DNA of 64,000 nucleotides from Escherichia coli (GTDB lineage Bacteria > Pseudomonadota > Gammaproteobacteria > Enterobacterales > Enterobacteriaceae), in the NCBI RefSeq assembly GCF_013122565.1, contig NZ_CP053258.1; one strand, written 5' to 3'. This document shows, one piece after another, positions 21,722 to 43,455 of the stretch. Positions within the stretch are counted from its first letter, which is position 1. Each line of letters starts with the position of its first letter. Made by a program: the position numbers and the translations under genes. The notes under the pieces were generated by a model. It searched no databases. It worked only from the letters and a program-made list of their open reading frames with translations, and was not told the origin of the DNA.

Positions 21722-21806
21722 CCTTAAAGAAGCGTTCTTTGAAGTGCTCACACAGATTGTCTGATAGAAAGTGAAAAGCAAGGCGTCTTGCGAAGCAGAC
21801 TGATAC

Positions 21807-32518: not shown

Positions 32519-32724
32519 AACTAACCTCGGGATGAGTAAGGAGACTTATCGGCAACGACGCCGGTATGTTTCTAATATGTTACATATTATCGGGGACATT
32601 GTTCCAGACAACAATCTGTTTTATTCAATAGGTATGATAGTCGTAGGCTTTGGTACGAAATCATGGCGAACCGCGCGGACTTCGGGTAATCTGCGCGCTT
32701 CGCGCAGCGCTGGGGGAGAAAAGC

Positions 32725-33809: not shown

Positions 33810-34499
33810 TTACTCACTCTCTGCCGGTAATACTGGCATCCAGTCAATCGGCGTCTCGCCATGTTGTTCCAGCCACTGATTTGCCAGCACAAAATGGTTA
33901 CAGCCAAAGAATCCACGATGCGCAGAAAGCGGTGACGGATGCGGTGCTTTCAGTACGTGATGGCGTTGCTTATCTATAATCGCCCCTTTCTTTTGCGCAT
34001 GCGATCCCCACAACAAAAACACCACGCCTTCGCGATGCTGGTTAATCAGGCTGATCACTTTATCGGTGAAGGTTTCCCAGCCGAGGCTGGCGTGGGAATG
34101 CGCCTGACCTGCGCGTACCGTCAACACAGTATTGAGTAGCAGAACGCCCTGACGCGCCCAGCTTTCAAGATAACCATGATTAGGGCGGGTGAAGCCCGGA
34201 ATAGTATTTTCCAGCTCTTTATACATATTCAGCAGTGACGGAGGAGTGGCGATTCCGGGGCGAACGGAAAATGCCAGCCCATGCGCCTGTCCCGGTCCGT
34301 GATAAGGATCCTGGCCGAGAATCACCACTTTAACGTCACCCAACTCTGTAAAGCGGAACGCGTTAAAGACATCCTTTTGTGGCGGATAGATAGTGACGCC
34401 GGCCTGCCGCTCGCTGGCGACGGTCTGTAGGGTATTAAGAAAATAGGGTTGTTGCTTCTCTTCAGCCAGCACGTCATGCCAGGTTAATTCGTTTGCCAT
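33810..34499 (-). CDS. ung: uracil-DNA glycosylase
   Basis: 229-aa [28 protein letters not shown]... with GQDPYH motif. Confidence 0.96.
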
Positions 34500-34682
34500 C
34501 TCGCTCTCCCGCGAATCTTCAATCCGCCTAGCTTAACTGCTTCTTTCTACAGAACAAAATCATGCTCATTTTTTAGACTTAAACGAGTGCAAAAAAATGT
34601 AAATTGGTAAAATTTCACACCTGCATAAGTTGATGTAAAACAATAAAATCCATTTGCGACCATACTTGATGTGTGGTTTTTA

Positions 34683-34696
34683 TTGATTTAAATCAA
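34683..34696. promoter_or_regulatory. FNR/CRP-family binding site upstream of grcA
   Basis: Perfect TTGAT-TTAA-ATCAA palindrome about 110 bp upstream of grcA ATG. Confidence 0.55.
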
Positions 34697-34803
34697 AGAT
34701 TCAAGGGTGTTTGAGGAGTATATATACACTCAAGCAACAATGGTTTTACCAATTGGCCGCGACAGGCTGAACAAATCAAATAATTTTGCCGGGGAGGCAT
34801 CAC

Positions 34804-35187
34804 ATGATTACAGGTATCCAGATTACTAAAGCCGCTAACGACGATCTGCTGAACTCTTTCTGGCTGCTGGACAGCGAAAAAGGCGAAGCGCGTTGCATCG
34901 TTGCAAAAGCAGGTTATGCAGAAGATGAAGTGGTTGCAGTAAGCAAACTGGGTGACATTGAATACCGTGAAGTTCCAGTAGAAGTGAAACCAGAAGTTCG
35001 CGTTGAAGGTGGTCAACACCTGAACGTTAACGTTCTGCGTCGTGAAACTCTGGAAGATGCAGTTAAGCATCCGGAAAAATATCCGCAGCTGACCATCCGT
35101 GTATCCGGATATGCAGTTCGCTTTAACTCTCTGACTCCGGAACAGCAGCGCGACGTTATTGCTCGTACCTTTACTGAAAGCCTGTAA
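34804..35187 (+). CDS. grcA: autonomous glycyl radical cofactor GrcA (YfiD)
   Basis: ORF track 34786..35187; ATG at 34804 gives [27 protein letters not shown]..., 127 aa; glycyl-radical motif RVSGYAV. Confidence 0.95.
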
Positions 35188-35209
35188 GGCTTAAGTAGCA
35201 AGTTACTAA

Positions 35210-35240
35210 GCGGAAGAGGGCGACTTCTTCCGCTTTTTTT
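35210..35240. terminator. rho-independent terminator after grcA (bidirectional with eamB)
   Basis: GCGGAAGA-loop-TCTTCCGC followed by TTTTTTT. Confidence 0.6.
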
Positions 35241-35242
35241 CG

Positions 35243-35830
35243 TTAATAGAAAATGCGTACCGCGCAATAGACCAGCAACAGTGCAAGCACGATATTCAAC
35301 TGGCGACCATACTGGCGAAACAATCGCTGAAACAGATGCCCCGCCAGCGCCCAGCACACATTGCCAAACGTCCCAATCATCGCCAGCAAAACGCTGACGC
35401 CAACTACCCAGCTTAACGCCTGTGTTTGCGGCAGAACAAATGTCGACAGTGCCGTAACACCGTACAAAATGATTTTGACGTTCACAAACTGCAAAGCAAA
35501 GCTGGCCCAAAAACTGATTGGTTTTGTCTGAAGCCCGTCTTCCTTTGTTGGACTGGTAGCGATTTTCCACGCCAGCCAGACAATATATGCCGCTCCTGCC
35601 CAACTCAACAGATGCACTGCTGCCGGGTCGATAACAGCCAGTGAAAACGAAATGCCCGCACACAGCAACATGACGATTAAAAATCCCAGACTCATCCCTG
35701 CCAGCACGCGAGTACTCTGACGAAATCCGTGCGTTGTAGCTGAGCTAAGGGCGAGAATATTGTTCGGTCCTGGCGTCATGGCGGTAATCAGGGTGTAAGT
35801 CCAAAAAGCACTTAAAAGGGTCGGTGTCAC
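35243..35830 (-). CDS. eamB: cysteine/O-acetylserine exporter EamB (YfiK), LysE family
   Basis: 195-aa hydrophobic ORF MTPTLLSAFWTYTLITAMTPGPNNILAL... Confidence 0.9.
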   Translation of the reverse strand: MTPTLLSAFWTYTLITAMTPGPNNILALSSATTHGFRQSTRVLAGMSLGFLIVMLLCAGISFSLAVIDPAAVHLLSWAGAAYIVWLAWKIATSPTKEDGLQTKPISFWASFALQFVNVKIILYGVTALSTFVLPQTQALSWVVGVSVLLAMIGTFGNVCWALAGHLFQRLFRQYGRQLNIVLALLLVYCAVRIFY

Positions 35831-42499: not shown

Positions 42500-43455
42500 T
42501 GAAGCAACTTTGGTTTGCCATGTCATTAGTGACAGGTAGCCTGTTATTCTCTGCTAACGCCTCGGCCACTCCCGCGTCCGGGGCGTTATTACAGCAGATG
42601 AACCTGGCCAGTCAGTCACTGAATTACGAGCTGTCATTCATCAGCATCAATAAACAGGGTGTTGAGTCTCTGCGTTATCGACATGCACGCCTCGATAACC
42701 GTCCTCTTGCACAATTGTTGCAAATGGATGGCCCGCGCCGGGAAGTGGTACAGCGCGGCAATGAAATCAGCTATTTTGAACCGGGACTTGAACCGTTCAC
42801 GCTTAATGGCGATTACATTGTTGATTCTCTGCCATCGCTCATCTATACCGATTTCAAACGCCTTTCTCCTTACTACGACTTTATCTCCGTCGGGCGCACG
42901 CGTATTGCTGATCGTCTTTGCGAAGTTATTCGCGTGGTTGCCCGAGATGGTACACGCTACAGCTACATCGTGTGGATGGACACCGAATCGAAATTACCGA
43001 TGAGGGTTGATCTCCTTGATCGCGATGGTGAAACGCTGGAACAATTTCGCGTGATTGCTTTTAATGTCAATCAGGATATCAGCAGCAGTATGCAGACGCT
43101 GGCGAAGGCAAATTTGCCGCCGTTGCTTTCTGTTCCTGTAGGTGAAAAAGCTAAATTCAGCTGGACGCCAACCTGGTTGCCACAGGGTTTTAGCGAAGTT
43201 TCCAGTAGTCGACGTCCGCTACCGACGATGGACAACATGCCTATCGAATCACGTCTCTATTCCGACGGATTATTCAGCTTCTCGGTAAACGTTAACCGCG
43301 CTACGCCATCGAGCACCGATCAGATGTTGCGCACCGGACGCAGAACCGTCAGTACAAGCGTACGTGATAACGCCGAAATCACCATTGTCGGTGAACTGCC
43401 GCCGCAAACGGCGAAACGCATTGCCGAGAATATTAAGTTCGGGGCAGCGCAATGA
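42499..43455 (+). CDS. rseB: sigma-E regulatory protein RseB
   Basis: 318-aa ORF with signal peptide MKQLWFAMSLVTGSLLFSANASA; start overlaps rseA stop. Confidence 0.95.
   Translation: MKQLWFAMSLVTGSLLFSANASATPASGALLQQMNLASQSLNYELSFISINKQGVESLRYRHARLDNRPLAQLLQMDGPRREVVQRGNEISYFEPGLEPFTLNGDYIVDSLPSLIYTDFKRLSPYYDFISVGRTRIADRLCEVIRVVARDGTRYSYIVWMDTESKLPMRVDLLDRDGETLEQFRVIAFNVNQDISSSMQTLAKANLPPLLSVPVGEKAKFSWTPTWLPQGFSEVSSSRRPLPTMDNMPIESRLYSDGLFSFSVNVNRATPSSTDQMLRTGRRTVSTSVRDNAEITIVGELPPQTAKRIAENIKFGAAQ

What the first reader, a model, noticed from the sequence alone, without database searches (positions are those of the whole stretch)
34683..34696. Perfect FNR-type palindrome upstream of grcA
TTGAT-TTAA-ATCAA is an exact match to the FNR/CRP-family half-site consensus and lies about 110 bp upstream of the grcA (yfiD) start, in the 304-bp ung-grcA gap. 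grcA is known to be strongly induced anaerobically and at low pH through FNR.
Basis: partly seen in the sequence, partly recalled or inferred. Interest (0 to 1): 0.25.

Follow-up and report, generated by a model that had tools for sequence, protein, structure and literature searches.

The report
Known FNR activator site of grcA
The palindrome is the already well-characterised main binding site (centred at -40.5) through which the oxygen sensor FNR switches on the E. coli grcA (yfiD) gene when oxygen is scarce, so the finding is correct but ordinary.

Summary
TTGATTTAAATCAA is at window 34683-34696. It is the only exact TTGAT-N4-ATCAA in 64 kb (0.09 expected). It lies in the 304-bp ung-grcA gap, with its centre 114.5 bp before the grcA ATG.

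The window is E. coli, collinear with K-12 at 98-99% identity. From 34623 to the ATG the promoter is identical to K-12.

The palindrome is the published FNR I site of the yfiD/grcA promoter, centred at -40.5 (+1 = window 34730). Myers et al. 2013 list this 14-mer under an FNR ChIP-seq peak. It has the highest score of all predicted FNR sites in K-12, and yfiD is classed as directly FNR-activated.

A weaker box, TTGATGTAAAACAA (34630-34643), lies 53 bp upstream.

A TATATA -10, a PdhR-like box at about +17 and a published predicted ArcA site (-10/+22) complete the region.

Among 111 grcA loci from five gammaproteobacterial orders, 108 have an FNR box with at most one mismatch upstream, and 80 have the 52/53-bp pair.

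The claim of low-pH induction "through FNR" could not be verified. Already known; low interest.

The parts
34683..34696 (.). FNR I: perfect FNR box TTGATTTAAATCAA, centred at -40.5 relative to the grcA transcription start; class II activating site (the finding)
   Evidence: sequence, unique in the window. (Myers 2013: same 14-mer, ChIP-seq bound, -40.5, activated). (the 78-bp yfiD-P1 oligo contains only this box). (conserved).
34630..34643 (.). FNR II: weaker FNR box TTGATGTAAAACAA (one mismatch), centre 53 bp upstream of FNR I, i.e. -93.5; published down-regulating site
   Evidence: one-mismatch hit. (the yfiD-m oligo mutates the G and the C of exactly this motif; the paper calls it 'FNR II'). 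(Myers Table S6: TTGTTTTACATCAA, 13.87 bits, ChIP-bound, 53 bp from FNR I). (52/53-bp pair in 80 of 111 loci).
34719..34724 (+). -10 hexamer TATATA (-11 to -6); no recognisable -35, as expected for an activator-dependent promoter
   Evidence: GGTATATA is conserved in register with FNR I across 72 loci; no consensus sigma-70 promoter (-35 plus -10) is found in the gap. Position inferred from +1 = 34730.
34730..34730 (+). grcA transcription start (+1), transferred from K-12
   Evidence: Park 2013 give an ArcA site spanning U00096.2 2714524-2714555 as -10/+22, so +1 = 2714545. Mapping through the identical sequence gives window 34730. FNR I centre 34689.5 is then -40.5, as published.
34738..34754 (.). 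PdhR-like operator CAATGGT-TTT-ACCAATT, centred at about +17
   Evidence: sequence. 14 of 17 identical to the pdhR operator AATTGGTCTTACCAATT (PMC3265435 Table 4). PdhR repression of yfiD is stated. Conserved in Enterobacteriaceae, Yersinia, Serratia, Edwardsiella and Proteus, absent from Vibrionaceae and Aeromonas. The exact published coordinates of the PdhR site were not available to me.
34720..34751 (.). Predicted ArcA-P site (three direct repeats, weak, 10.5 bits) under an ArcA ChIP peak in K-12
   Evidence: Park 2013 supplement: TGGTAAAACCATTGTTGCTTGAGTGTATATAT, which is the reverse complement of window 34720-34751.
34677..34681 (+). T-tract (GGTTTTTA) directly upstream of FNR I, -53 to -49; conserved; possibly an alpha-CTD/UP-like contact (inference)
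   Evidence: conserved in register; invariant within Escherichia.
34730..34803 (+). 74-nt grcA 5'UTR with Shine-Dalgarno GGAGG (34793-34797)
   Evidence: nearly invariant across E. coli lineages and E. albertii.
34804..35187 (+). grcA (yfiD) coding sequence, 127 aa, autonomous glycyl radical cofactor
   Evidence: TIGR04365, 234 bits.
35208..35235 (+). Intrinsic terminator-like hairpin plus T-run after grcA
   Evidence: 12 pairs, 6 G-C, followed by TTTTTCGTT.
33810..34499 (-). ung, the divergent neighbour that shares the control region
   Evidence: divergent ung upstream of grcA in 102 of 102 loci with enough flank.

Best explanation
The palindrome is the promoter-proximal FNR operator (FNR I) of the grcA/yfiD promoter. 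When oxygen is scarce, FNR acquires its [4Fe-4S] cluster and dimerises. One dimer binds this perfect TTGAT-N4-ATCAA box centred at -40.5, where it takes the place of a -35 element. From there it recruits and activates sigma-70 RNA polymerase, which is class II activation (established knowledge of FNR). Transcription starts at window 34730 from the TATATA -10 and yields a 74-nt leader plus grcA. A second, lower-affinity box 53 bp upstream (FNR II, -93.5) fills only when active FNR is abundant and then damps the promoter, so the wild-type promoter is most active under microaerobic conditions. PdhR (box at about +17, relieved by pyruvate) and ArcA add further control. Shown: the sequence, its position, its identity with K-12, and its conservation. 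Taken from the literature for the identical K-12 sequence: in vivo FNR occupancy, FNR-dependent expression, and the effect of removing or mutating FNR II. Inferred: that this particular strain behaves the same way, and the polymerase contact details.
For: Sequence and chance.
Identity with K-12 from 34623 to the ATG. Collinearity of the whole window with K-12.
Myers 2013: yfiD is in Category 1 (directly FNR-activated), site at -40.5, ChIP peak. Table S6 lists TTGATTTAAATCAA (17.25 bits, highest of the whole table) and TTGTTTTACATCAA 53 bp away, both at a ChIP-seq peak. Table S8 lists yfiD as 'Activated' in the WT versus delta-fnr comparison.
TSS: Park 2013 give the ArcA site as -10/+22, which fixes +1 at window 34730 and puts FNR I at -40.5.
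PMC10208419: the 78-bp yfiD-P1 fragment, which contains only this box, and the yfiD-m promoter with FNR II mutated both gave much higher fluorescence than wild type, similar to or above lacUV5. yfiD-m was very low in oxygen, while yfiD-P1 had moderate to high aerobic basal expression. The wild type is reported as more active microaerobically.
Conservation: 108 of 111 grcA loci from Enterobacterales, Pasteurellales, Vibrionales, Aeromonadales and Orbales have a box with at most one mismatch (about 3% in shuffles). 80 of 111 have the 52/53-bp pair (0 in shuffles). In these pairs the proximal box is always the better or equal one. The -10 is conserved in register. Both boxes are invariant in divergent E. 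coli lineages and E. albertii, while the spacer between them varies.
Against: Nothing contradicts it. Caveats: all functional data are from K-12 and are transferred by sequence identity. The primary promoter papers (Green 1998, Marshall 2001, Wyborn 2002) are not in the held library, so I rely on later papers that cite and reuse them. Myers Table S2 labels the sigma-70 peak at yfiD/ung 'Aerobic'; I did not interpret this, since the peak also covers the divergent ung promoter.
Confidence: 0.97

Rival explanations
1. A chance palindrome in an AT-rich intergenic region with no regulatory role.
For: The 14-mer is AT-rich and short, and 9 of 100 shuffles of the window produce at least one exact match.
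Against: It is ChIP-bound in K-12 and has the top PWM score genome-wide. It is conserved at a fixed distance from the -10 in dozens of genera. It is invariant where the neighbouring spacer mutates freely.
Confidence: 0.005
2. The box is chiefly a site for another CRP/FNR-family regulator (for example CRP) rather than FNR.
For: The family shares the helix-turn-helix fold and a palindromic half-site architecture. Reciprocity of FNR and CRP site recognition is documented (reference 127).
Against: The half-sites are TTGAT/ATCAA with a 4-bp spacer, which is the FNR consensus. They are not the CRP core TGTGA-N6-TCACA (read directly; the consensus is established knowledge). FNR ChIP and fnr-dependent expression are published.
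Confidence: 0.01
3. The box, or the pair of boxes, also or mainly controls the divergent ung gene.
For: The control region is shared, and the ung-grcA divergent pair is conserved in 102 of 102 loci. Myers label the peak 'yfiD/ung'.
Against: FNR I is 190.5 bp from the ung ATG. Read on the ung strand, neither box is followed by a good -10 at class II distance (my reading). ung did not appear next to the yfiK and yfiD rows (b2578, b2579) in the b-number-ordered excerpt of Myers Table S8 that I saw; I did not read the whole table or search it for ung.
Confidence: 0.05
4. The palindrome belongs to an RNA-level element: a small terminator-like hairpin plus T-run at 34658-34682 runs into its left half and could stop upstream plus-strand transcription.
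For: flags 34658-34678 as terminator-like. Folding gives -11.4 kcal/mol, z = -2.7. A stem plus T-run on the grcA strand occurs between the boxes in 30 of 80 loci, against 9 of 80 on the other strand and about 3.6 of 80 in shuffles.
Against: No plus-strand gene or promoter lies upstream. The stems are weak (5-10 pairs, 2-4 G-C). The excess is partly produced by the conserved T-tract and by relatedness of the loci. E. albertii loses the pairing, and E. coli variants change the arms without consistent compensation. No Rfam family matches. No published 3' end was found.
Confidence: 0.03

Closest known systems
FNR I (-40.5) site of the E. coli K-12 yfiD/grcA promoter (Green et al. 1998; Marshall et al. 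2001; Myers et al. 2013)
   Same: Identical 14-mer and identical flanks from FNR II through the ATG. Same distance to the -10, the TSS and the ATG, and the same gene neighbours.
   Different: Nothing in the site itself. The window is a different E. coli lineage (98-99% identical to K-12 overall), with one SNP at 34623, 7 bp upstream of FNR II.
Other class II FNR-activated promoters with near-consensus boxes (narK and nirB TTGATTTACATCAA; dmsA; ydfZ)
   Same: TTGAT-N4-ATCAA box centred at -40.5 or -41.5, replacing a -35 element; ChIP-bound; FNR-activated.
   Different: grcA additionally has a second FNR box at -93.5 that down-regulates, giving a microaerobic optimum. nirB and narG instead combine FNR with NarL/NarP, Fis and IHF.
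Tandem-FNR-box promoters listed in Myers Table S6 (cydA, ompW, ydfZ)
   Same: Two predicted FNR boxes under one ChIP peak; the cydA pair is 52 bp apart, close to the 53 bp here.
   Different: The roles of the boxes differ: at cydA FNR is a repressor (my recollection, not tested here).

Membership tests
FNR operator (CRP/FNR-family site, FNR type) | Inverted repeat TTGAT-N4-ATCAA | tested here: met
   Exact 10 of 10 match at 34683-34696.
FNR operator (CRP/FNR-family site, FNR type) | In vivo occupancy by FNR | tested here: met
   Published ChIP-seq and ChIP-chip peak at yfiD/ung in K-12, with this 14-mer listed as bound. Transferred to the window through 100% sequence identity. Not measured in this strain.
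Class II FNR-activated promoter | Box centred near -41.5 (plus or minus 1) relative to the transcription start, overlapping the -35 position | tested here: met
   +1 = window 34730, derived from the Park 2013 coordinates, so the centre is at -40.5. Myers give -40.5. A TATATA hexamer is conserved 22 bp after the box end. No consensus -35 is present.
Class II FNR-activated promoter | FNR-dependent increase of transcription without oxygen | tested here: met
   Literature only. yfiD is 'Activated' in the WT versus delta-fnr comparison (Myers Table S8) and is about 9-fold higher anaerobically (Table S12 ratio 0.11). The minimal promoter with only this box gave high fluorescence in anaerobic reporter assays, though with raised aerobic basal expression.
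yfiD-type tandem-FNR 'microaerobic' promoter architecture (Marshall et al. 2001) | A second, weaker FNR box at -93.5 (53 bp upstream) that down-regulates | tested here: met
   TTGATGTAAAACAA at 34630-34643. Identified as FNR II by the mutagenic oligo m097. Bound in ChIP. The functional down-regulation is literature-based.
Orthologous regulon member (phylogenetic footprint) | Box conserved upstream of orthologous genes | tested here: met
   108 of 111 loci have a box with at most one mismatch, and 80 of 111 have the 52/53-bp pair. This agrees with Ravcheev 2007, who predict Fnr at yfiD in 9 of 10 genomes.
CRP operator | TGTGA-N6-TCACA core | tested here: not met
   The half-sites are TTGAT/ATCAA with a 4-bp spacer.
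Known structured RNA (Rfam) | Match reaching a family's gathering score | tested here: not met
   The only hit is a plant miRNA model at 22.5 bits against a gathering score of 100, E = 0.28.

The most novel reading that the evidence does not exclude
The exact two-box design is an ancient, conserved oxygen 'band-pass' device. It consists of a strong proximal FNR box and a weaker box 53 bp (five helical turns) upstream, and it travels with the divergent ung-grcA pair across Enterobacterales, Vibrionales and Aeromonadales. Pasteurellaceae have rewired it to a 43/44-bp spacing with the perfect box in the distal position. Between the proximal box and an extended -10 they also carry a family-specific TTTGAA-N3-TTCAAA palindrome. 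This predicts a different oxygen-response curve in that family.
Probability: 0.45. Interest if true: 0.2.

Novelty: already known. Interest (0 to 1): 0.05.

Why it matters
It matters little as a discovery. This is one of the best-characterised FNR sites in E. coli and is already used as an oxygen-responsive part in metabolic engineering. As a quality check it does show that the first-stage reader can recognise a genuine operator from sequence alone. The comparative by-product may interest people who study how promoter architecture tunes oxygen-response curves. That by-product is strict 53-bp spacing of the two boxes across three orders, a different arrangement in Pasteurellaceae, and an always-divergent ung-grcA pair. 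It is an incremental observation.

Tried and rejected
1. Consensus sigma-70 promoter scan of 34400-35300 found nothing. This is expected for an activator-dependent promoter without a -35 and is not evidence against a promoter.
2. Rfam scan of 34300-35400 at E up to 1 gave only a spurious plant miRNA hit on the palindromic DNA.
3. Hairpin/terminator between the two boxes (34658-34682). It is enriched on the grcA strand across taxa. However, the stems are weak, the count is confounded by the conserved T-tract and by relatedness, the pairing is lost in E. albertii, and E. coli variants do not compensate. There is no upstream plus-strand gene. I rejected it as a supported feature and kept it as a passing note.
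4. FNR II as a class II site for ung. Read on the minus strand, the box is followed at the required 21-23 nt by ACCAAT/TACCAA, a poor -10 (my reading). Rejected.
5. The primary papers (Green 1998, Marshall 2001, Wyborn 2002, Ogasawara 2007) are not held. As a result, the published PdhR and ArcA footprints of Wyborn et al. and the regulator dependence of the pH response could not be checked.
6. A literature search for Term-seq or 3'-end data mentioning grcA found nothing.
7. I did not count the exact 14-mer in all 5,425 E. coli genomes. I have only identity bands for a 151-bp query and four divergent representatives plus E. albertii.

Full report
**Observation**

The sequence TTGATTTAAATCAA lies at window 34683-34696, exactly as reported. 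It is the only exact match to TTGAT-N4-ATCAA on either strand of the 64-kb window. Dinucleotide-preserving shuffles give 0.09 matches per window.

ung runs on the minus strand and starts at 34499. The next plus-strand gene starts at 34804. The gap is therefore 304 bp, and the centre of the box is 114.5 bp before the ATG. The downstream ORF is GrcA (TIGR04365, 234 bits against a cut-off of 170), and RefSeq E. coli genomes annotate it as such.

**Where the window comes from**

A 1-kb query around the site hits 5,425 of 5,426 complete E. coli genomes. The best identity is 99.2%.

The whole window is collinear with K-12 MG1655 positions 2,751,335 down to 2,687,261, in reverse orientation, at 98.1-98.9% identity. 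There are no large insertions.

In the ung-grcA gap the window differs from K-12 at a single base, 34623, 7 bp upstream of the distal box. From 34623 onward through the ATG the two are identical. Published K-12 data therefore apply to this DNA base for base.

**What the site is**

- Myers et al. 2013 (PMC3688515) place yfiD among operons directly activated by FNR, with a ChIP peak and a site at -40.5.
- Their Table S6 lists the very 14-mer TTGATTTAAATCAA at yfiD/ung as a predicted site lying at an FNR ChIP-seq peak. Its PatSer score of 17.25 is the highest in the whole table; narK and nirB follow at 17.06.
- The same table lists a second bound site, TTGTTTTACATCAA, 53 bp away. In the window this is TTGATGTAAAACAA at 34630-34643, which my one-mismatch search also found.
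- Which box is which is settled by the oligonucleotides in the supplement of PMC10208419. [quoted passage not shown] The paper's 78-bp yfiD-P1 promoter (oligo m098), described as having the upstream FNR site deleted, retains only TTGATTTAAATCAA.
- The finding is therefore FNR I, the activating site. The upstream box is FNR II, the -93.5 site named in the title of Green et al. 1998.

**Transcription start**

Park et al. 2013 (PMC3798270, supplement) give a predicted ArcA site spanning U00096.2 2,714,524-2,714,555 and describe it as -10/+22. This fixes +1 at 2,714,545.

Mapping through the identical sequence uses two anchors. Myers' 14-mer starts at 2,714,579, and the window 14-mer ends at 34696 in the opposite orientation. 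This puts +1 at window 34730.

The centre of the palindrome (34689.5) is then at -40.5 and the distal box at -93.5, matching the literature exactly. A TATATA hexamer at 34719-34724 (-11 to -6) serves as the -10.

A consensus scan finds no -35/-10 pair in the gap. That is what one expects when the activator occupies the -35 position.

**How it works**

The mechanism follows established knowledge of FNR together with the cited papers.

- Without oxygen, FNR holds a [4Fe-4S] cluster, dimerises and binds the perfect box at -40.5. From there it activates RNA polymerase as a class II activator.
- The lower-affinity box at -93.5 fills only at high levels of active FNR and then damps transcription. 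As a result the wild-type promoter is more active microaerobically than in full anaerobiosis (PMC10208419 citing Marshall 2001; PMC3181329).
- Removing or mutating FNR II gave much higher fluorescence than wild type, comparable to or above lacUV5. yfiD-m stayed very low in oxygen, while yfiD-P1 had moderate to high aerobic basal expression.
- PdhR represses yfiD and is released by pyruvate.
- I find a PdhR-like box, CAATGGT-TTT-ACCAATT, at 34738-34754, centred at about +17. It is 14 of 17 identical to the pdhR operator AATTGGTCTTACCAATT.
- ArcA also binds here in ChIP experiments. ArcA is said to act by antagonising FNR at the distal site (citing Wyborn 2002).

The polymerase contacts and the behaviour of this particular strain are inferred. 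Everything else is either read from the sequence or published for the identical K-12 DNA.

**Conservation**

I collected grcA loci without reference to their promoters, using a degenerate DNA pattern for the GrcA N-terminus against one genome per species. This gave 120 loci. Of these, 114 encode a full-length GrcA-like protein, and the rest are cut by the locus end.

- Of the 111 loci with at least 250 bp of upstream DNA, 65 have a perfect FNR box and 43 have a one-mismatch box within 320 bp. In shuffled upstream sequences the fractions are 0.1% and 3.2%.
- In 80 of 111 loci a second box lies 53 bp (72 loci) or 52 bp (8 loci) further upstream. This never occurred in the shuffles.
- In every such pair the proximal box is the better or equal one: 51 perfect and 29 with one mismatch, against 62 with one and 18 with two mismatches for the distal box.
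- The pairs occur in Enterobacterales, Vibrionales and Aeromonadales.
- Anchoring the sequences on the proximal box shows four features conserved in register: the distal box, a T-tract directly upstream of FNR I, GGTATATA at the -10 position, and the PdhR-like box. The PdhR-like box is present in most Enterobacterales only.
- Within Escherichia, both boxes, the -10, the PdhR-like box and almost the whole 5'UTR are invariant in three divergent E. coli lineages and E. albertii. Substitutions accumulate in the spacer between the boxes and between FNR I and the -10.
- ung is the divergent upstream neighbour in all 102 loci with enough flank.
- This agrees with Ravcheev et al. 2007, who predicted Fnr sites at yfiD in nine of ten genomes from three families.

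Two points need amending. The clause 'at low pH through FNR' could also not be verified. Acid and pyruvate induction are documented. The sources I could read link that induction to PdhR, pyruvate or unspecified stress, and the primary study (Wyborn et al. 2002) is not in the held library.

**Side issue followed and dropped**

The terminator scan flagged a small hairpin plus T-run at 34658-34678 on the grcA strand, between the boxes. Together with the palindrome it folds at -11.4 kcal/mol, z = -2.7.

A stem plus T-run occurs there in 30 of 80 loci, against 9 of 80 on the opposite strand and about 3.6 of 80 in shuffles. The stem sequences differ between Enterobacteriaceae, Photobacterium and Aeromonas.

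Several things weigh against it. The stems are weak. The conserved T-tract and the relatedness of the loci inflate the count. E. albertii has lost the pairing, and E. coli variants alter the arms without consistent compensation. No plus-strand gene or promoter lies upstream. No Rfam family matches, and no 3'-end report was found.

I regard the T-tract as the conserved element, possibly an alpha-CTD contact, and the hairpin as unsupported.

**Verdict**

This is a real, functional and thoroughly characterised FNR operator: FNR I of the grcA/yfiD promoter. It is already known, and interest is low (0.05). The only mildly new material is comparative. The 53-bp two-box design is strictly conserved across three orders, and Pasteurellaceae show a different arrangement, with a 43/44-bp spacing and the perfect box distal.

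Noticed in passing
window 34630-34643: Second FNR box TTGATGTAAAACAA (one mismatch) exactly 53 bp upstream of the reported palindrome.
   Followed up: yes
window 34738-34754: PdhR-like operator CAATGGT-TTT-ACCAATT at about +17, 14 of 17 identical to the pdhR operator. It is conserved in most Enterobacterales but absent from Vibrionaceae and Aeromonas grcA leaders. It overlaps the ArcA site predicted by Park 2013 (34720-34751).
   Followed up: partly
window 34658-34682: Inverted repeat ACCATAC/GTGTGGT followed by TTTTT between the two FNR boxes, terminator-like on the grcA strand. It is enriched across taxa (30 of 80 loci against 9 of 80 on the other strand), but the stems are weak, it is lost in E. 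albertii, and no upstream plus-strand gene exists. The T-tract itself is well conserved and may be an alpha-CTD/UP-like contact.
   Followed up: partly
L003, L013, L036, L071, L080, L084, L097, L111, L114 (Pasteurellaceae grcA loci), 150 bp upstream of the ATG: In Pasteurellaceae the two FNR boxes are 43/44 bp apart, usually with the better or perfect one distal. Many of these loci also carry a family-specific palindrome TTTGAA-N3-TTCAAA between the proximal box and a conserved extended -10 (TGATAAAAT). This palindrome has the wrong spacing for FNR, and its binding factor is unknown.
   Followed up: partly
L041, L043, L068, L090, L110, L122, L052, L007 (Orbaceae: Gilliamella, Schmidhempelia): A single FNR box (TTGACTTTAATCAA type) only about 73 bp before the grcA ATG, preceded by a T7 run. 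A TATATT hexamer lies just 14 nt after the box, closer than in a standard class II promoter.
   Followed up: no
102 loci of L003-L122: ung is the divergent upstream neighbour of grcA in every locus with enough flank (102 of 102; median gap about 316 bp). This spans Enterobacterales, Pasteurellales, Vibrionales, Aeromonadales and Orbales, an unusually stable pairing of two functionally unrelated genes.
   Followed up: partly
window 21787-21806: The only break in collinearity with K-12. In the 16S to tRNA-Glu spacer of the rrnG operon, about 20 bp in the window replace about 106 bp in K-12 (2,729,445-2,729,550). This is probably ordinary rrn spacer heterogeneity.
   Followed up: no
window about 32570-32700 (trxC-yfiF divergent intergenic region): K-12 ChIP data report both an FNR peak (Myers Table S5, U00096.2 2,716,583) and an ArcA peak with a strong predicted site (Park 2013, 18.9 bits, 2,716,706) in this gap. 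My one-mismatch search found no FNR box there.
   Followed up: no
window 42637-42650: The one-mismatch FNR-like box TTCATCAGCATCAA lies inside rseB. It corresponds to TTGATGCTGATGAA, 'Within rseB', which Myers Table S6 lists as predicted but not bound in ChIP-seq. The other one-mismatch hits (2083, 2856, 30417, 57363) were not examined, except that 30417 maps inside patZ.
   Followed up: partly
L075: A grcA N-terminal pattern match in a contig titled Neisseria sp. MVDL19-042950, a betaproteobacterium. All other hits with a named taxon are Gammaproteobacteria, so this may reflect a mislabelled or contaminated assembly or horizontal transfer. The locus is only 1.4 kb.
   Followed up: no
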